64,000 bases of DNA from an uncultured Mycoplasma sp. (GCA_945947035.1 CAMEXD010000006.1:1574-65573), one strand, 5' to 3'; counted from the first letter of the stretch, positions 50,007-56,046 are shown. Program-made: numbers and translations. The notes: generated by a model from the sequence alone, not told the origin.

Positions 50007-52631
50007 ATGAAATACGTTTATAGTTTTAATGAAGGTAATAAAGATATGAGAAATACTCTTGGAGGAAAAGGAGCAAATCTTTGTGAAATGACTAATTTAG
50101 GTTTACCTGTTCCCAAAGGATTTATTGTTTCAACTGATGCATGTATAGATTATTATAATAATAATGGTGCAATTAGTGATGAAATAATAAATGAAATCTA
50201 TGAAAAGCTTGAAGAATTAGAAAAAACAACAGGTAAAACTTTAGGTGATTCTAAAAACCCACTTCTTTTATCAGTTAGAAGTGGAGCAAGAAGTAGTATG
50301 CCTGGAATGATGGATACTGTTTTAAATTTAGGAATGAATGATGAAGTATGTGACTTTTTTCCTAATAAAAGATTTTCTTATGACAGCTATAGAAGATTTA
50401 TTCAAATGTATGCTGATGTAGTTATGGGTTTTCCTAAAGAGTCTTTCGAAGGTTTATTTGATAAACTAAAACAAGAAAAAAACGTTAAATACGATACTGA
50501 TTTAACTGAAGAAGATTTAAAAGAAGTAATAACTAGATACAAAGAAGAATATCAAAGATTAGCAAAAACTAGCTTTCCAACTGATCCAAAAGAACAATTA
50601 ATATCTGCCATAAAAGCAGTATTTAAAAGTTGGAATAATGAAAGAGCAATAACTTATAGAAGACTAAATGACATTCCATCAAGTTGGGGAACTGCAGTAA
50701 ATGTTCAAGAAATGGTATTTGGAAATAAAAACAATAATAGTGCAACAGGTGTTGCTTTTACAAGAAATCCTGCAACAGGAGAAAAAGTATTATACGGAGA
50801 ATACCTTGTTAATGCTCAAGGAGAAGATGTCGTAGCAGGTATTCGTACACCTAAATCAATTATTAATTTAAAACAAGAATTTCCAGATTGCTATAATGAA
50901 TTTACTAAAATTGCAGATACTCTAGAAAAACATTATCATGATATGCAAGATATGGAATTTACAATTGAAGATAATAAACTTTATATCTTACAAACTAGAA
51001 ATGGTAAAAGAACAGGAACAGCTGCAGTTAAAATTGCTATGGATTTATTAAAAGAGAATATGATAGATGAAAAAGAAGCACTTTTAATGGTTGATGCTAA
51101 AACACTTGATCAATTGCTTCATAAAACTTTTAATAAAGAACTTTTAAAAAATGCTAAAAAAATAGCTGAAGGGCTTCCAGCTTCACCTGGATCTGCTTAT
51201 GGAAAAATTTGTTTTGATGCAAAACATATAAAAGATCTTGCAAGTAATAATGAAAAAAATCTTATTTTAGTAAGAGATGAAACTTCTCCTGAAGATATCG
51301 AAGGAATAAACATTGCAAGTGGTATTTTAACCCTTAGGGGAGGAACAACATCACATGCTGCAGTTGTTGCTCGTGGTATGGGAACTTGTTGTGTTTGTGG
51401 TTGTAGTTCTTTAAAAATTGATTATGAAAACAAAATTTTAGAGACAGATTCTGGTATTATTTTACATGAAGACGATTATATTTCACTTGATGGAACAACT
51501 GGTTATGTTTATTTAGGAAAAATAGAAGTAGAAGATCCCATAATTGAAGATGACTTTAAAAAGCTTTTAGATTTAACAGATAAATATAAAAGTATGGAAG
51601 TAAGAGCCAATTCTGAAACACTAAAAGATAGCAAAACTGCCCTTAGTTTTGGAGCATTAGGAATTGGTTTATGTAGAACAGAGCACATGTTCTTTGAAAA
51701 TGAACGTATTTTTAACTTTAGAAAAATGATACTTTCAAAAAACAAAGAAGAAAGATGTGATGCATTAAATAAAATTCTTCCTTATCAAATAGAAGATTTT
51801 TATAATTTATTTAAAGTAATGAATGAATTAAGCGTTAATATAAGACTTCTTGATCCACCACTTCATGAATTTTTACCAAAAAAAGAAGAAGAAAAAATTG
51901 AGTTAGCAAAAGCTTTAAATATAAGTTATGAAGATATAAATAATAGAATAAATAGTCTAAAAGAATTTAATCCAATGATGGGACATAGAGGTATAAGGCT
52001 TGGTGTTACTTATCCAGAAATTGTTGTTATGCAAACTAAAGCTATAATAGAAGCAGCAATTAAAGCAGCAAAAGAAAATATTGCTGTAGAACCAGAAATA
52101 ATGATACCTTTAGTATGTAATAAAAAAGAATTACAGTATGTTAAAACTGTTATAAAAGAAACTGCAGATAAAATCATCAAAGAAGAAAAAACAAATATCT
52201 CTTATAAAATTGGTACAATGATTGAAATACCAAGAGCAGCAATTATTTCAAAAGATATAGCAAGTGATGTAGAATTCTATTCATTTGGAACTAATGATTT
52301 AACTCAGATGACTTACGGTTTTTCAAGAGATGATGCCGAAAAGTTTTTACCTTCTTACTATCAAAAACAAATTTTTGAATTTGATCCATTTGTTAGAGTT
52401 GATGAAGAAGGAGTTGGAACTTTAATTAAAAATGCTATAAAAGATGCCAAAGAAGTAAATAAAGATATAAAAATAGGTGTTTGTGGTGAACATGCAGGAG
52501 ATCCAAAAAGCATTGAATTCTTTGCTAAAGTTGGAGTAGATTATGTTTCATGTAGTCCATATCGTGTTCCTATTGCAAGACTTGCTGTTGCACAAGCTGC
52601 AATTAAAGCGAGTGAAAAGGATAACAAATAG
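50007..52631 (+). CDS. ppdK: Pyruvate, phosphate dikinase
   Basis: GGKGANL, SMPGMMDTVLN, GGTTSHAAVVAR, GLCRTEHMF, GVCGEH. Confidence 0.97.
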   Translation: MKYVYSFNEGNKDMRNTLGGKGANLCEMTNLGLPVPKGFIVSTDACIDYYNNNGAISDEIINEIYEKLEELEKTTGKTLGDSKNPLLLSVRSGARSSMPGMMDTVLNLGMNDEVCDFFPNKRFSYDSYRRFIQMYADVVMGFPKESFEGLFDKLKQEKNVKYDTDLTEEDLKEVITRYKEEYQRLAKTSFPTDPKEQLISAIKAVFKSWNNERAITYRRLNDIPSSWGTAVNVQEMVFGNKNNNSATGVAFTRNPATGEKVLYGEYLVNAQGEDVVAGIRTPKSIINLKQEFPDCYNEFTKIADTLEKHYHDMQDMEFTIEDNKLYILQTRNGKRTGTAAVKIAMDLLKENMIDEKEALLMVDAKTLDQLLHKTFNKELLKNAKKIAEGLPASPGSAYGKICFDAKHIKDLASNNEKNLILVRDETSPEDIEGINIASGILTLRGGTTSHAAVVARGMGTCCVCGCSSLKIDYENKILETDSGIILHEDDYISLDGTTGYVYLGKIEVEDPIIEDDFKKLLDLTDKYKSMEVRANSETLKDSKTALSFGALGIGLCRTEHMFFENERIFNFRKMILSKNKEERCDALNKILPYQIEDFYNLFKVMNELSVNIRLLDPPLHEFLPKKEEEKIELAKALNISYEDINNRINSLKEFNPMMGHRGIRLGVTYPEIVVMQTKAIIEAAIKAAKENIAVEPEIMIPLVCNKKELQYVKTVIKETADKIIKEEKTNISYKIGTMIEIPRAAIISKDIASDVEFYSFGTNDLTQMTYGFSRDDAEKFLPSYYQKQIFEFDPFVRVDEEGVGTLIKNAIKDAKEVNKDIKIGVCGEHAGDPKSIEFFAKVGVDYVSCSPYRVPIARLAVAQAAIKASEKDNK

Positions 52632-52896
52632 TTCGCATTATCATACCTGCTTAAGTCTTATAAATAAAGGTTTTAAGAAAATATTAATAAATTAAAACAA
52701 TCTATAAAAATAGGTAAATTTGCTAAAATTAGACTGAAATTTTAAAAATTTTGGTCTTTTTTTGATAAAAATAGCGCTTTTTGTGGCAAAGATTTAGTAC
52801 TTGAAAAATGGTATAAAATTAAATTAAAATAACCATATATTTAATTTTTATGATAATATATAATTAGCCAAAAAAGTCTTGGATTGGAGGTTAATT

Positions 52897-53886
52897 ATGG
52901 ACAATAAAAATTTAATGCTAAGACCAATGATGTTAATATCTGATATGGTTCTATATATGAAAAGTAAAAATATTAAATTTAAAAAATGTTCAGAGAAAGA
53001 TGCTGAAATATATTTGAGAGAAAACAATAATTATTATAATGTAACATCTTATAAAAATAATTTTATTAAATATCAATGTGGTGAACAACAAGGAAAGTAT
53101 ATAGATTTAGATTTTGCATATTTAAAAGATTTATCCATTATAGATTATAGGACCAGATTAGTATTATTTAAAATGATAATTAATATAGAACATTATTTAA
53201 AAATAAGAATATTAAATACTATAGAAGATATAATTGATGAAGATGGTTACAAAATAGTTAATCTATATTTAGAAAAAGATTTTAATGACAAAGAGCGTCC
53301 TAAAAGAGTTCATGACAGTATTAGAAAAAAAGTTACAAATGAATATTATCAGAAAATATTTTCTAAATATGATCTAGACAAGGATAGCAAAATAGAAAAT
53401 ATACCCATTTGGGAATTTTTAGAAATTATAACATTTGGGGAATTAATTAATTTCTTTGACTTTTTTACAAGTTATTATAAATTAGACGATAATAAATATA
53501 TATTTATTTTAAGAGAAGTAAATAAACTTAGAAATGCAGTAGCACATAATTCTTGTGTTTTATCTGAATTAGATAAAAAGGATAATACACATAGGGTTGA
53601 TACATTAGTTATTAATTATTTAAAAGATTGTGTAATAGGAAAAGAAAATAGAAATACAAAACTTTCTAATTCAAGAATAAGACAAATTACCTATACTTTA
53701 TATATATTTAATATTATAGTAAGTAGTGATGGGGTAAAAAATAATGTTAAACATGATATTACAAAATTATTTTATGGAAGAATAATTTTAAATGGAAAGT
53801 ACTATAATAATAATGAACTATTGAAATCCATATATAATTATTTTGATAAAATTATCGAAAAAAATTATAAAGAAAATTTGGACTAA
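52897..53886 (+). CDS. Abi family (AbiD/AbiF) HEPN-domain protein
   Basis: NYYNVTSYK, Y.D...R..L...I..IE, WEFLEIITFGEL, LRNAVAHN (RxxxxH); lies in an AT-rich island. Confidence 0.85.
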   Translation: MDNKNLMLRPMMLISDMVLYMKSKNIKFKKCSEKDAEIYLRENNNYYNVTSYKNNFIKYQCGEQQGKYIDLDFAYLKDLSIIDYRTRLVLFKMIINIEHYLKIRILNTIEDIIDEDGYKIVNLYLEKDFNDKERPKRVHDSIRKKVTNEYYQKIFSKYDLDKDSKIENIPIWEFLEIITFGELINFFDFFTSYYKLDDNKYIFILREVNKLRNAVAHNSCVLSELDKKDNTHRVDTLVINYLKDCVIGKENRNTKLSNSRIRQITYTLYIFNIIVSSDGVKNNVKHDITKLFYGRIILNGKYYNNNELLKSIYNYFDKIIEKNYKENLD

Positions 53887-53890
53887 TAGT

Positions 53891-53919
53891 TTGACATAGA
53901 AAAATATTTATGATATATT
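53891..53919 (+). promoter_or_regulatory. SigA promoter immediately after the abi stop codon
   Basis: TTGACA-17-TATATT with extended TG. Confidence 0.8.
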
Positions 53920-53923
53920 ATCT

Positions 53924-53990
53924 ATGCAAGGAAAAAATGTTAAATCATTTTTGTAAGGGGTTTATTTTCGGATAGAGCCCTATTTTTTTA
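53924..53990 (+). ncRNA. Candidate ~65-nt Abi-associated sRNA (putative RNA antitoxin)
   Basis: Promoter, AAAAAUG/CAUUUUU hairpin, then a GGGG..UUCG..CCCU terminator with U tract; no ORF. Confidence 0.65.
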
Positions 53991-54170
53991 ATTAAAAATT
54001 TAATTTAATAAAAAGTATAAATGATATTTACTTAATGATAATTAAAGTTTAATAATATTATATTAAAAAAATGCCCTTCAAACATTACGATGGTACAAGC
54101 TACAATTAAAACTGAAATAATTGGATAATATTATTTTAATAAACTTAATATAATATAAATTTATAACTAT

Positions 54171-54199
54171 TTGATATTTTCATAAAAATATAATATATT
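54171..54199 (+). promoter_or_regulatory. SigA-like promoter for the repeat array
   Basis: TTGATA-17-TATATT. Confidence 0.6.
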
Positions 54200-54222
54200 T
54201 ATATAGCTACTTAAAAAGTGGT

Positions 54223-54328
54223 GAAAATGTTTTTCGCTTCTGGATGGTGCGAATAATAAATGATTCCAGGCGACAATGTTTTTCGCTTCCAGGTGGTGCG
54301 ACTAATAAATGATCCTGGTTGAAAATGT
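54223..54328 (+). ncRNA. 2.2 x 49-nt tandem pseudoknot repeats, CptI-like type III antitoxin RNA
   Basis: Units 54223-54271, 54272-54320, partial 54321-54328; 39/49 identical; stems UCGC/GCGA and CUGGA/UCCAG vs CCAGG/CCUGG. Confidence 0.8.
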
Positions 54329-54333
54329 AGAAT

Positions 54334-54360
54334 AACTTCATCATATGATGGAGTTTTTTT
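54334..54360 (+). terminator. Intrinsic terminator closing the repeat array
   Basis: aacttcatc-atat-gatggagtt followed by a T tract. Confidence 0.85.
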
Positions 54361-54531
54361 GTTTTATGATATATTATTTCTACATGTTTATATTATACAA
54401 GATATATTTATAAAACATTTAACAAATAAGAAAATTACCTCTGTTGTCTTTAATAAAAATAAAAAATATATTATAATATTAACAAGTCTTAAAAAATTTA
54501 AATCTTATTAAAAAGAGGTGACTTAATAACC

Positions 54532-56046
54532 GTGGCAAATAAATTTGTTCCATTATTGTTTGCAATTATTTTTACTTTTTGGACAGTTAGAGTATATTAT
54601 AAGTTATACGATAGTAAAACAAGAAGATATATTTTAATTATTGGCATCTTAATTATTTTTTGGATGCTAATTAGAATTATAAAAGGAGTTACAATTGATA
54701 TCAAGATAGAAAGAATATGTTGGTATTTATATTATTTACCACTTATATTTATTCCAAGTCTTTTTTATATTTGTTCTAATTCGTTATCAAATAAAATGAA
54801 TGAAAAAAGAAAAATACTGATATATATAGTTTCTTCAATATTATTAATATTAGTTTTAACTAATGATTTTCACCAATTTGTTTTTAAATTTAATCATGGA
54901 ATAAATTTTCATAATAATTATAATCATTATATTGGTTATTACTTAATTTTTATTTGGATATTTTATTTATTTGGTGGTGGCATGATAAGTTTAGCAATAA
55001 ATAGATTAAAAATTACGAAAGATTTAAAAGCATTTTTGCCTTTAATAGTTTTATTACTTGGTTTAATTTATAATTATCTTAATATTATGGATGTTCCATA
55101 TATTAGGCGAATGAACATGTCAATTGTTAATAGTGTTTTGATCTGTTTAGGAATTGAACTTGCTTTTTATTTAGAATTAATACCAAATAATAAAAAATAT
55201 ATTCAAAAGTTTTCCAATTCAAATTTGGATATGGTAATTGTATCACTAGATGGAAAAACAAAATATACTACTTGTTCATTTAAAACAATTCCAAGTTTTA
55301 TTTTAGATGATATTAAAAAAAATCAAGTAAAAAATACTTATAAAATGAAACATGTAGTTTATAATGTTAAGAAAAATAAAGATAATTATGTAATACTAAA
55401 AAAAGATTTAACCAATATTTATAAATTAGAGGATGAAATAAAAAGCCAAAAAAAGAAATTATTAAAACAACAAGAAAGCATGAAATTAGAAGAAAAAACA
55501 AAAAAGGAATTATATGAAATAAAAATAAGAAAAGAAACAATTAGTAGAGTTGAAAAAAAATTAAATGAAAAAAGATTAGAAGCTAAAAATATTGTAATGA
55601 AGAATGATGTTAAAAAAGAAGATTTAGAAAAAGTAAAAAGAATTATAGTATATAGCAAAAAGAAAAGCATGCTTATTATTTCTGAAATGAATAATGAAGT
55701 ATACAATGAAGAAAGTATAAAAATACTACTAAATGAACTAATAACTAGTATGCCAAGTTTAAATATAGAAGGTTTAGTAGTTGTAAAAAATAAAATGACT
55801 ATTAAAGGTAGTATTATGTCTTACTTATATGATATCGTCTATGAACTTATGGAAAATTCTAAAAGTAAAACTATAATGATTTTTGTATTTAGTAATAATA
55901 ATATAGTTAAATTAAAAGCAATTGTTGGTACAAGTGAAAAAATAAAAGATAATTTAAAATTAGATTCTAGTATTAAAATAAAAGAAAATGTTTATGATAC
56001 AGACACTGAACTAGAATTTACTATAAAGGATAGTGATAACTTATGA
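54532..56046 (+). CDS. 7TM sensor-kinase-like subunit lacking H-box and ATPase motifs
   Basis: Seven TM (CWYLYYLPLIFIP), PAS-like region and coiled coil; no His/N/G boxes recognisable. Confidence 0.7.
   Translation: MANKFVPLLFAIIFTFWTVRVYYKLYDSKTRRYILIIGILIIFWMLIRIIKGVTIDIKIERICWYLYYLPLIFIPSLFYICSNSLSNKMNEKRKILIYIVSSILLILVLTNDFHQFVFKFNHGINFHNNYNHYIGYYLIFIWIFYLFGGGMISLAINRLKITKDLKAFLPLIVLLLGLIYNYLNIMDVPYIRRMNMSIVNSVLICLGIELAFYLELIPNNKKYIQKFSNSNLDMVIVSLDGKTKYTTCSFKTIPSFILDDIKKNQVKNTYKMKHVVYNVKKNKDNYVILKKDLTNIYKLEDEIKSQKKKLLKQQESMKLEEKTKKELYEIKIRKETISRVEKKLNEKRLEAKNIVMKNDVKKEDLEKVKRIIVYSKKKSMLIISEMNNEVYNEESIKILLNELITSMPSLNIEGLVVVKNKMTIKGSIMSYLYDIVYELMENSKSKTIMIFVFSNNNIVKLKAIVGTSEKIKDNLKLDSSIKIKENVYDTDTELEFTIKDSDNL

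What the first reader, a model, noticed from the sequence alone, without database searches (positions are those of the whole stretch)
52897..53990. AbiD/AbiF HEPN toxin followed immediately by a dedicated ~65-nt sRNA cassette
Seen: the RNAVAH HEPN motif. Five nt after the stop come TTGACA-17-TG-TATATT, a bulged hairpin (GCAA-GG-AAAAAAUG/CAUUUUUGU) and a UUCG-capped terminator. The abi 5' UTR also has an A-rich hairpin (CCAA-AAAAGUC-UUGG) next to the SD. Established: AbiF-family HEPN RNases have been reported as RNA-antitoxin (type III-like) systems with an adjacent ncRNA and proposed as Cas13 ancestors; lactococcal AbiD1 is controlled through its 5' UTR. Inference: this sRNA is the antitoxin.
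Basis: partly seen in the sequence, partly recalled or inferred. Interest (0 to 1): 0.7.

Follow-up and report, generated by a model that had tools for sequence, protein, structure and literature searches.

The report
Small RNA gene tied to Abi toxin
A phage-defence RNase gene (Abi_2/AbiD-F family) is followed by its own small RNA gene, which is conserved wherever the intact RNase occurs and is most likely its RNA antidote, placed behind the toxin gene rather than in front as in the known AbiF systems.

Summary
Window 52897-53886 encodes a 329-aa Abi_2/AbiD-F protein with an invariant RNAVAH HEPN motif. Four nt after its stop lies a top-grade sigma-A promoter, a bulged A/U hairpin and a UUCG-capped terminator, which together predict a ~62-nt RNA (about 53926-53989).

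Comparative evidence makes this a genuine gene:
- The cassette follows the abi stop in 78 of 80 homologous loci (59-93% aa identity).
- It is conserved as well as or better than the coding DNA, while both outer flanks are at background identity.
- The invariant positions are exactly the promoter's key bases.
- The upper hairpin and the terminator show compensatory changes.

No intact abi lacks the cassette, whereas orphan cassettes and abi genes with apparent frameshifts next to intact cassettes both occur. That is the asymmetry expected for a toxin and its antidote. Distant Abi_2 genes (28-35% identity) in phages, streptococcal satellites and S. aureus have the same layout. In S. aureus the RNA is the Northern-validated Sau-5971/RsaL.

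The RNA does not match the Rfam abiF motif, and all described AbiD/F RNAs lie upstream of the gene. Verdict: a new variant (reversed order, separate promoter) of the AbiF-type RNA-antitoxin system. The antitoxin role is inferred, not shown.

The parts
52851..52862 (+). Putative abi promoter: extended -10 (TGATAATAT / TATAAT), giving a short leader of about 25-35 nt
   Evidence: Read from the sequence. Homologs carry TGnTAnAAT-type extended -10 elements 20-35 nt upstream of the SD, but the leaders are otherwise not conserved. This part is inferred.
52868..52882 (+). 4-bp hairpin CCAA-AAAAGUC-UUGG in the abi leader; the SD GGAGG follows at 52886-52890
   Evidence: Present in the sequence but not conserved in relatives. 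Probably incidental.
52897..53886 (+). abi gene: 329-aa Abi_2/AbiD-F HEPN protein, the presumed RNase toxin
   Evidence: Pfam PF07751 E 1.5e-23. PADLOC AbiD 1e-14. The best and only credible PDB fold match is 8VZ6 (PbAbiF bound to ncRNA; prob 0.94, TM 0.37-0.40).
53530..53547 (+). HEPN catalytic motif R-N-A-V-A-H (residues 212-217)
   Evidence: R212, N213, A214, A216 and H217 are invariant and V215 is nearly invariant (at least 90%) in 23 homologs of 59-83% identity.
53891..53919 (+). sRNA promoter: -35 TTGACA (53891-53896), 17-nt spacer, TG (53911-12), -10 TATATT (53914-19)
   Evidence: In 74 distinct cassettes the invariant columns are TTGAC, TG, and the A and T of TAnnnT, which are the promoter-critical bases.
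53895..53926 (+). P0: inverted repeat CATAGAA / ATCTATG spanning the promoter spacer and the discriminator. It would form a hairpin only in read-through abi transcripts
   Evidence: 86% of cells are paired and 5 of 7 pairs show changes on both sides. No shuffle of 500 reached the observed covariation score, and slid controls gave 26-42% paired. G-U cells 32 against A-C cells 5. The function is inferred.
53926..53954 (+). P1 bulged hairpin at the predicted 5' end of the sRNA. Lower stem GCAA/UUGU, 5'-side bulge GGAAA(A), upper stem AAAUG/CAUUU, loop UUAAAU. Predicted TSS at G53926
   Evidence: Upper stem: three pairs with compensatory changes (12, 18 and 16 sequences), 99.8% paired. Lower stem: 99.2% paired and only wobble-compatible one-sided changes. 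The TSS is inferred from -10 spacing.
53956..53989 (+). Intrinsic terminator: stem 53956-53966 with 53971-53981, loop UUCG, U7 at 53983-53989. It also ends the abi mRNA
   Evidence: Fold. 88% paired, and 8 of 11 pairs have compensatory changes. There is no other terminator between the abi stop and this site.

Best explanation
abi and the ~62-nt RNA form one two-part mobile module, a reversed-order AbiF-like (type III-like) toxin-antitoxin and abortive-infection system.

**Shown**
- The RNA unit is a conserved gene with its own near-consensus promoter, a structured body and a terminator.
- It is inherited together with abi.

**Inferred**
- abi has no terminator of its own, so every abi mRNA runs through the cassette and carries the RNA element as its 3' end.
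- The strong internal promoter additionally makes an excess of free sRNA.
- The bulged hairpin (5'-terminal stem, GGAAAA bulge, UGYAAGG flank) binds the Abi HEPN dimer and keeps its RNase site blocked, as PbAbiFr and RCd22 do for AbiF.
- When transcription or RNA supply collapses, for example during phage infection, the RNA decays. Free Abi then cleaves cellular RNA and growth stops.
- The P0 hairpin just upstream of the sRNA 5' end in read-through transcripts may be a processing site, for RNase III or for Abi itself, that releases the sRNA.
For: 1. **Linkage.** The cassette starts 0-10 nt after the abi stop in 78 of 80 loci. Of the other two, one is cut by a contig end and one is L069.
2. **Module borders.** Identity to the window is 0.64-0.97 for the RNA and 0.71-0.96 for the promoter, against 0.72-0.89 for abi DNA. 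It is 0.54-0.57 in both 100-nt outer flanks, except 0.68 upstream in the closest relatives; about 0.55 is my estimate of background for unrelated AT-rich DNA, not a measured value.
3. **Real promoter and real structure**.
4. **Loss asymmetry.** No intact full-length abi lacks the cassette. The two abi genes without one are C-terminally broken: L069 has a frameshift plus a transposase-like fragment and no cassette anywhere in that genome, and G143 is truncated and fused. In contrast, 8 of 25 cassette hits in 151 family genomes are orphans, and most of these keep the promoter. L137 is 98.5% identical to L019 from 7 nt before the -35 onward but has no abi. Apparently frameshifted abi genes keep intact cassettes.
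5. **Dosage.** There are 2-4 tandem cassettes, each with its own promoter, in L073, L076-L079 and G101.
6. **Deep conservation of the layout.** Abi_2 genes at 28-35% identity have a -35 overlapping their last codons, then a -10, an sRNA and a terminator (L081, L082, L095, L083, L085, L084). Model R1 hits L082 (E 1e-3), L081 (7.5e-3) and IMG/VR contigs beside 33-40% abi homologs.
7. **An expressed example.** In S. aureus the RNA at this position is Rfam sau-5971 (117 bits). [quoted passage not shown]
8. **Precedent.** AbiF is a toxin neutralised by direct binding of an adjacent ncRNA (bioRxiv 10.1101/2025.04.15.648962; PMC12737573; PMC13064643).
Against:
- The RNA is not a member of the known abiF motif family: there is no Rfam hit at E<=1 locally and none for RF03085 at E<=10 genome-wide. 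All characterised AbiD/F RNAs are upstream.
- Fold similarity to PbAbiF is weak (Foldseek E 0.13, TM ~0.4, model pLDDT 72).
- Orphan cassettes next to unrelated, often defence-type genes fit a 'junction element' reading as well.
- Several apparent abi frameshifts sit at homopolymer runs and may be assembly errors.
- Co-inheritance alone cannot distinguish an antitoxin from another kind of partner RNA.
Confidence: 0.6

Rival explanations
1. The sRNA is real and tied to abi, but it is not an antitoxin. It might act in cis as a 3'UTR element (terminator, mRNA stabiliser or processing signal). Alternatively it might be a positive cofactor, sensor or guide-like RNA of the HEPN protein, or a trans-acting regulator of other genes.
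For: abi mRNA must end at this terminator. The P0 covariation implies a function for the read-through form. Sau-5971/RsaL has no assigned function and was described as 3'UTR-derived (PMC3386247). Orphan copies with promoters persist without abi.
Against: A purely cis role does not need an invariant near-consensus internal promoter, nor tandem units that each carry a promoter. The one-sided loss pattern, where the toxin is never found alone, is what an antidote predicts and not what a cofactor predicts. In the nearest characterised systems the RNA is a neutraliser.
Confidence: 0.2
2. The ~100-bp element is mainly a cassette-junction or recombination repeat of integrase-less defence islands in gut Bacilli, the reading of an earlier scan note. 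Its short transcript would be a by-product.
For: Orphan copies sit beside Fic, SLFN-helicase/GIY-YIG and AAA_14-DUF4143 genes, as well as housekeeping genes. In L065 and L061 a promoter-less 3' half of the element is fused to the end of an unrelated gene upstream of [326-aa gene + abi + cassette]. The L137/L019 breakpoint lies exactly at the element's 5' edge.
Against: - A junction site would not need invariant -35, TG and -10 bases, RNA-type (G-U tolerant) covariation or a U-run terminator.
- The element co-diverges with one gene family down to 28-35% protein identity in phages, streptococci and staphylococci.
- It is absent downstream of 29 other Abi_2 genes sampled across the phylum.
- Every intact abi of this clade has it.
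- No direct repeats bound the island in this window.

Use as portable homology for recombination may be a side effect of its conservation.
Confidence: 0.12
3. A type I-like antisense sRNA that base-pairs with the abi translation-initiation region.
For: The RNA is small, is transcribed separately and lies adjacent to a toxin gene.
Against: RNAduplex energies of the sRNA body against the -45..+75 region of abi in 10 diverse loci are no better than shuffled controls (z from -1.9 to +1.3), and the predicted sites are inconsistent. abi leaders are unconserved while the sRNA is highly conserved.
Confidence: 0.03
4. The unit encodes a leaderless micro-peptide that starts at the conserved ATG (53924).
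For: An ATG sits at the predicted transcript start. In the window it reads MQGKNVKSFL followed by a stop.
Against: Across 74 cassettes the reading frame gives peptides from 6 to more than 23 aa. Indels shift the frame, the start is sometimes ACG or TTG, there is no SD, and the changes follow base-pairing rather than codons.
Confidence: 0.02

Closest known systems
AbiF-ncRNA systems: PbAbiF-AbiFr (PDB 8VZ6; Zilberzwige-Tal et al. 2025, as cited in PMC12737573 and PMC13064643) and C. difficile AbiF_Cd-RCd22 (bioRxiv 10.1101/2025.04.15.648962)
   Same: Both have an Abi_2-family HEPN protein with the R-x4-H motif and a conserved, structured small RNA encoded directly beside the toxin gene. In both, the RNA is a hairpin with a single-stranded bulge, and the RNA gene has a sigma-A promoter and an intrinsic terminator. 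Both modules are mobile or accessory.
   Different: Here the RNA gene lies downstream of the toxin with its own promoter, not upstream in a shared leader whose terminator throttles toxin transcription. There is no match to the abiF motif RF03085. The protein is only distantly related: no phmmer hit to the PDB, 16% identity and TM ~0.4 in the fold match. Neutralisation has not been shown here.
S. aureus sRNA Sau-5971 / RsaL / S109 (Rfam RF02397) next to SA0355
   Same: It occupies the same position: its promoter is embedded in the last codons of a 324-aa Abi_2 gene and a ~96-nt RNA ends at a terminator. It shares the string AUGCAAG(A/G)AAAAA. It has been detected experimentally (PMC3386247, PMC5826253).
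   Different: The sequence and fold differ: two extra 5' hairpins, and the A-rich strand is part of the terminator. Model R1 scores it only 16.6 bits (E 0.4), and the window has no RF02397 hit. In the papers I could search, its function is unassigned and it is not linked to the Abi gene.
Classical type III TA systems (ToxIN, CptIN, TenpIN, AbiQ)
   Same: A protein RNase toxin is neutralised by a cis-encoded small RNA. Multi-copy RNA arrays occur in some relatives of this locus. These systems also act in abortive infection.
   Different: In those systems the toxins have a Kid/ToxN fold, not HEPN. The antitoxin is a tandem repeat array upstream, transcribed from one promoter and cut by the toxin. 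Here there is a single downstream unit, and in relatives the arrays consist of units that each carry their own promoter and terminator.
Reverse-order type II TA operons (higBA, hicAB, mqsRA)
   Same: The toxin gene comes first, and the antidote comes second with an additional promoter of its own.
   Different: In those operons the antidote is a protein. Here it is an RNA.

Membership tests
Abi_2 / AbiD-F group (Pfam PF07751) | Profile match above the curated cut-off | tested here: met
   84.5 bits against a cut-off of 25.6, E 1.5e-23. PADLOC AbiD 1e-14. The score is lower than for typical members (150-176 bits), so this is a divergent sub-clade.
Abi_2 / AbiD-F group (Pfam PF07751) | HEPN R-x4-6-H catalytic motif | tested here: met
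   RNAVAH at residues 212-217. R, N, A, A and H are invariant in 23 homologs.
Abi_2 / AbiD-F group (Pfam PF07751) | Fold like PbAbiF (8VZ6) | tested here: inconclusive
   8VZ6_A is the top hit and the only one with high probability (0.94; all others 0.08 or lower). However, E is 0.13, TM is 0.37-0.40 and the model pLDDT is 71.8.
AbiF-type RNA-antitoxin (type III-like) system | Conserved structured ncRNA encoded next to the toxin gene | tested here: met
   Present in 78 of 80 loci. Covariation supports the structure.
AbiF-type RNA-antitoxin (type III-like) system | ncRNA upstream of abiF, co-transcribed, with a terminator between the RNA and the toxin | tested here: not met
   The RNA is downstream with its own promoter. 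The abi leader is short and unconserved.
AbiF-type RNA-antitoxin (type III-like) system | RNA carries the abiF motif (Rfam RF03085) | tested here: not met
   No hit at E<=1 in 52000-55000 and none at E<=10 in the whole genome. The motif was also absent from 30 other Abi_2 loci, so I had no positive control for it.
AbiF-type RNA-antitoxin (type III-like) system | RNA binds the toxin and neutralises it; the toxin is growth-inhibitory alone | not testable with these tools
   Only indirect support is available: the loss asymmetry between abi and the cassette.
Classical type III TA (ToxIN/CptIN) | Tandem-repeat antitoxin array upstream of a ToxN/Kid-fold toxin | tested here: not met
   The window has a single downstream unit, and the toxin is HEPN. 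Arrays in relatives are made of complete promoter-to-terminator units.
Rfam RF02397 (sau-5971) | Covariance-model match | tested here: not met
   No hit in the window. The reverse test, R1 against sau-5971, gave E 0.4. The two are positional analogues, and homology is unproven.
Cassette-junction / attC-like recombination repeat | Occurs at joints of unrelated cassettes independently of one cargo family, with conservation explained by recombination rather than transcription | tested here: inconclusive
   Orphans occur beside other genes, and a breakpoint lies at the element's edge. Against this, the conservation pattern is that of a promoter, an RNA and a terminator, and the element co-diverges with Abi_2.

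The most novel reading that the evidence does not exclude
A broad clade of Abi_2 HEPN toxins uses a so-far undescribed 'toxin-first' RNA-antitoxin architecture. The clade spans gut Bacilli, phages of Clostridia, streptococcal satellite prophages and the S. aureus core gene SA0355. In this architecture the sRNA promoter is built into or just behind the toxin's last codons, every toxin mRNA carries the antidote as its 3' end, and free sRNA is made in excess. This would assign a function to the long-orphan S. aureus sRNA RsaL/Sau-5971. It would also show that arrays of RNA partners of the Cas13-ancestor family can arise by duplicating whole promoter-to-terminator units. The covarying P0 hairpin would mark a processing site.
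Probability: 0.4. Interest if true: 0.75.

Novelty: new variant of a known kind. Interest (0 to 1): 0.62.

Why it matters
AbiF-type HEPN toxins with RNA antidotes have recently been put forward as the ancestors of Cas13, and every characterised case has the RNA in the 5' leader. A large, easily recognised sub-clade with a separately promoted 3' RNA would show that the protein-RNA partnership is older and more flexible than the one known layout. It offers a second RNA scaffold for comparison with AbiFr and crRNA. It also gives a testable function to a validated but unexplained S. aureus sRNA, and it explains many 'orphan promoter plus terminator' mini-units seen in gut Bacilli genomes. In practical terms, annotation pipelines that look only upstream, or only for RF03085, will miss these partners and will call the toxin a single-gene system.

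Tried and rejected
- **Rfam.** A scan of 52000-55000 at E<=1 found nothing. RF03085 in the whole genome at E<=10 found nothing.
- **PDB by sequence.** phmmer gave no hit. The profile gave only a weak uS13-like hit.
- **Antisense pairing to the abi start region.** No better than shuffles (one search timed out).
- **Micro-peptide reading.** Rejected because frames and lengths are not conserved.
- **A conserved 5' leader RNA.** Upstream regions are unrelated among homologs. One sub-clade (L037, L041, L057, L061, L064, L065) does have a leader with a terminator in addition to the 3' cassette.
- **Direct repeats bounding the island in the window.** None were convincing.
- **Is the 3' cassette a general Abi_2 feature?** No. 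In 29 high-scoring Abi_2 loci across the phylum there was no promoter-at-stop cassette (only L107 shows a promoter-like site just after its stop), and many are followed by a coupled membrane-protein gene instead.
- **'Pseudogene' abi genes.** L029's stop removes only about 16 residues. The frameshifts in L071, L072 and L080 may be assembly errors, so I give them little weight.

Full report
**What is there**

The window comes from a 1.17-Mb, 24.7% G+C genome. The relatives fetched are uncultured gut Bacilli, some labelled Tenericutes.

Directly after ppdK (50007-52631) lies a 329-aa ORF at 52897-53886. It matches Pfam Abi_2 (E 1.5e-23) and PADLOC AbiD. It carries the HEPN motif RNAVAH at residues 212-217, which is invariant among 23 homologs of 59-83% identity. 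An AlphaFold2 model (pLDDT 71.8) has one credible PDB neighbour, 8VZ6, the PbAbiF dimer bound to its ncRNA (prob 0.94, TM 0.37-0.40, E 0.13). Sequence searches of the PDB find nothing apart from a weak uS13-like stretch at residues 238-288.

Four nt after the TAA come four elements:
- TTGACA-17-TGaTATATT at 53891-53919
- a hairpin
- a UUCG-capped terminator at 53956-53981
- a U7 run

A perfect TTGACA-N14-TGNTANNNT occurs three times in the 64-kb window, against 0.06 expected. The single-sequence fold is only marginally better than shuffles (z -1.96), so the case rests on comparison with relatives.

**Comparative evidence that the cassette is a gene**

I fetched 80 loci that encode relatives of the protein (59-93% identity).
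- BLAST and a strict pattern find the cassette immediately after the abi stop in 78 of them. L006 is cut by a contig end, and L069 is discussed below.
- Identity to the window is 0.64-0.97 for the RNA part and 0.71-0.96 for the promoter, against 0.72-0.89 for abi DNA. The 100 nt beyond the terminator and the 100 nt before the start codon sit at 0.54-0.57, except 0.68 upstream in the closest relatives. About 0.55 is what I take as background for unrelated AT-rich DNA. The inherited unit therefore runs from abi through the terminator.
- In an alignment of 74 distinct cassettes, the invariant columns are TTGAC, the TG, and the A and T of TAnnnT. These are the bases a sigma-A promoter needs. The A5 and U5 runs, UG, GG and CUAUUUUU are also invariant.
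- Counts on a named structure give 99.8% pairing in the upper hairpin, with compensatory changes at three pairs (AU/GC, UA/CG, GC/AU in 12-18 sequences). The terminator is 88.5% paired, with compensatory changes at 8 of 11 pairs. No shuffle of 500 reached the observed values on four of five measures (1 of 500 on the fifth), and slid controls gave 38-52% pairing.
A lower stem (U)GCAA/UUGY(A) is 99.2% paired, and its one-sided changes are almost all G-C to G-U or A-U to G-U. It flanks a 5'-side bulge G(G/A)AAAA.
- From the -10 spacing the transcript should start at G53926, which puts the lower stem at the very 5' end. The predicted RNA is about 62 nt long (53926-53989).
- A peptide reading is excluded, because frames, lengths and even the start codon vary.

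**An extra element: P0**

The segments CATAGAA (53895-53901) and ATCTATG (53920-53926) flank the -10 region and are complementary.
- Across cassettes this pairing is 86% kept, with double changes at five of seven pairs. No shuffle of 500 reached the observed covariation score, and slid controls gave 26-42%.
- Mismatched cells are G-U 32 times and A-C 5 times. This points to pairing in plus-strand RNA.
- That RNA can only be the abi transcript reading through, because abi has no terminator before the cassette. I infer that every abi mRNA ends with P0-P1-terminator. P0 may be a processing signal, but this is speculative.

**Is the RNA tied to abi?**

A covariance model (R1) finds one copy in the window and none elsewhere in the genome.

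In 151 genomes of the same family:
- The RNA occurs in 18 genomes (25 hits) and abi occurs in 16 genomes.
- Seventeen hits lie right after abi. These include tandem arrays and one array split by a contig break.
- Eight hits are orphans, lying after Fic (twice), SLFN-helicase/GIY-YIG, AAA_14-DUF4143, NrtR, RnfD, an MscS-like gene and one remnant. Most keep the promoter, and some keep the AATAG of the abi stop.

Further cases bear on the same question:
- In IMG/VR contigs the model again finds copies beside abi homologs of 33-40% identity, and also orphans.
- One orphan, L137, is 98.5% identical to L019 from 7 nt before the -35 onward. It has unrelated DNA where abi should be.
- The only abi genes without a cassette are C-terminally damaged. 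L069 has a frameshift, a transposase-like fragment follows it, and there is no cassette anywhere in that genome. G143 is truncated after residue ~250 and fused to other sequence.

So an intact toxin never occurs without the RNA, while the RNA often occurs without the toxin. This is the asymmetry expected if the RNA is an antidote. Apparent frameshifts in abi next to intact cassettes (L071, L072, L080, G070) point the same way, but they may be assembly errors. Tandem amplification to 2-4 complete promoter-to-terminator units in several clades fits a dosage requirement.

**Depth of the architecture**

Abi_2 genes at 28-35% identity show the same layout, with the -35 inside or at their last codons:
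- a fecal phage contig (L081) and Evtepia phages (L082), where R1 scores E 7.5e-3 and 1e-3
- a second Abi_2 in a related genome (L095)
- streptococcal satellite and prophage genes, which share a ~60-nt downstream RNA (L083, L085)
- an S. aureus gene (L084)

In S. aureus the RNA is Rfam sau-5971 (117 bits). [quoted passage not shown] I found no paper that links it to the Abi gene. A short motif UGYAAGR recurs in the gut, phage, streptococcal and staphylococcal RNAs, but homology among them is not established.

The layout is not general to Abi_2. Of 29 high-scoring Abi_2 genes sampled across the phylum, none has the cassette (only L107 shows a promoter-like site just after its stop), and many are followed by a coupled membrane-protein gene. 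The window's own genome has three such paralogs.

**Comparison with what is known**

AbiF and the AbiD/F group are now described as two-component systems of a HEPN RNase plus a small RNA. The RNA lies upstream, often carries the abiF motif RF03085, and neutralises the toxin by binding. These systems are proposed as Cas13 ancestors (bioRxiv 10.1101/2025.04.15.648962; PMC12737573; PMC13064643).

Here the protein family and the partnership with a structured, bulged hairpin RNA are the same. The position (3'), the independent promoter and the RNA family are different. RF03085 gives no hit. It also gave none in 30 other Abi_2 loci, so I had no positive control for that model. I therefore file this as a new variant of the AbiF-type RNA-antitoxin system, not as a member of the described abiF-motif class.

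**Rivals**

- A cis-only or other non-antitoxin role for the RNA remains possible (about 0.2).
- A 'cassette junction repeat' reading, raised in an earlier scan note, explains the orphans and the breakpoints. It does not explain the promoter, RNA and terminator conservation pattern, nor the co-divergence with Abi_2 (about 0.1).
- Antisense control of abi translation is unsupported.

**Limits**

There is no functional test. All relatives are metagenome-assembled genomes. Earlier scan notes that describe the same architecture in other genomes are AI notes, not independent evidence.

Noticed in passing
window 54171-54360: This looks like a second small-RNA-like unit. It has a promoter TTGATA-17-TATATT (54171-54199), about 2.2 tandem 49-nt repeats (54220-54317, 82% alike) and a terminator (54334-54355). 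There is no Rfam hit, and it is conserved only in 4 close relatives (L002, L010, L021, L025). An earlier scan note reads it as a toxin-less CptI antitoxin array; I did not test that.
   Followed up: partly
L065:1750-1820 (also L061, L037, L041): A promoter-less 3' half of the cassette (hairpin plus terminator) is fused onto the last codons of an unrelated membrane-protein gene. It lies upstream of [326-aa gene with no Pfam match + abi + full cassette], so the insert is flanked by direct copies of the element.
   Followed up: partly
L077:3980-4424; L079, L073, L078, L076; G101:C1:432308-432723: These loci hold tandem arrays of 2-4 complete cassettes (period ~113 nt), each with its own promoter and terminator. 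L076 also has one copy upstream of abi.
   Followed up: partly
window 53608-53760 (Abi residues 238-288): The C-terminal region CGIGKE.R..KLSNSRIRQIT has weak profile similarity to the N-terminal RNA-binding part of ribosomal protein uS13 (E 0.011). G143, one of the two abi variants that lack a cassette, has lost this C-terminal part; in the other (L069) the truncation begins downstream of it, at about residue 305.
   Followed up: no
own genome G000: C3:57785-58372, C17:21527-22093, C17:8217-8762: These are three further Abi_2 paralogs that match Pfam much better (149-164 bits) than the window's gene (87 bits). L104 (the C3 copy) has no 3' cassette and lies next to two tRNA genes.
   Followed up: partly
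L112, L113, L116-L118, L120-L123, L125: Many typical Abi_2 genes are followed at once by a small gene for a membrane-anchored protein, overlapping or within a few nt. This suggests a different two-gene Abi_2 system.
   Followed up: no
L108 and L110, 3' flank of abi: Another Abi_2 clade in the same bacterial family has a different conserved element after the stop: GAAAAGUGCCUAGGAAACUUUUGAAGCCCUAGG followed by a U-run. It is possibly another 3' RNA partner.
   Followed up: no
L083:1545-1690 and L085:1545-1690: Streptococcal satellite and prophage Abi_2 genes share a ~60-nt downstream RNA (GUAAGACUGAUUYAGUUCAGCGCUCUAUAAUUCAUGCGUGCGUGAAUAAGAGAAU). A promoter overlaps the abi stop, and the two loci have different terminators. 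There is no Rfam hit.
   Followed up: partly
L061, L064, L065, L057, L037, L041: about 110 nt upstream of abi: This sub-clade additionally has a promoter (TGTGATATATT) and a short leader ending in a terminator (GGGCGUG...CGUCC followed by a U-run) just before the abi SD. It therefore carries both a 5' attenuator-like leader and the 3' cassette.
   Followed up: no
window 54363-54384: TTTATGATATATTATTTCTACA repeats the -10 region of the sRNA promoter (86% identity to 53907-53928) just after the second RNA unit's terminator. It may be a remnant of another cassette or the promoter of the downstream kinase operon.
   Followed up: no
L137:5034-6824 (- strand): A 596-aa protein with an RMSAHN (HEPN-like R-x4-H) motif lies in the same island as an orphan cassette.
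   Followed up: no
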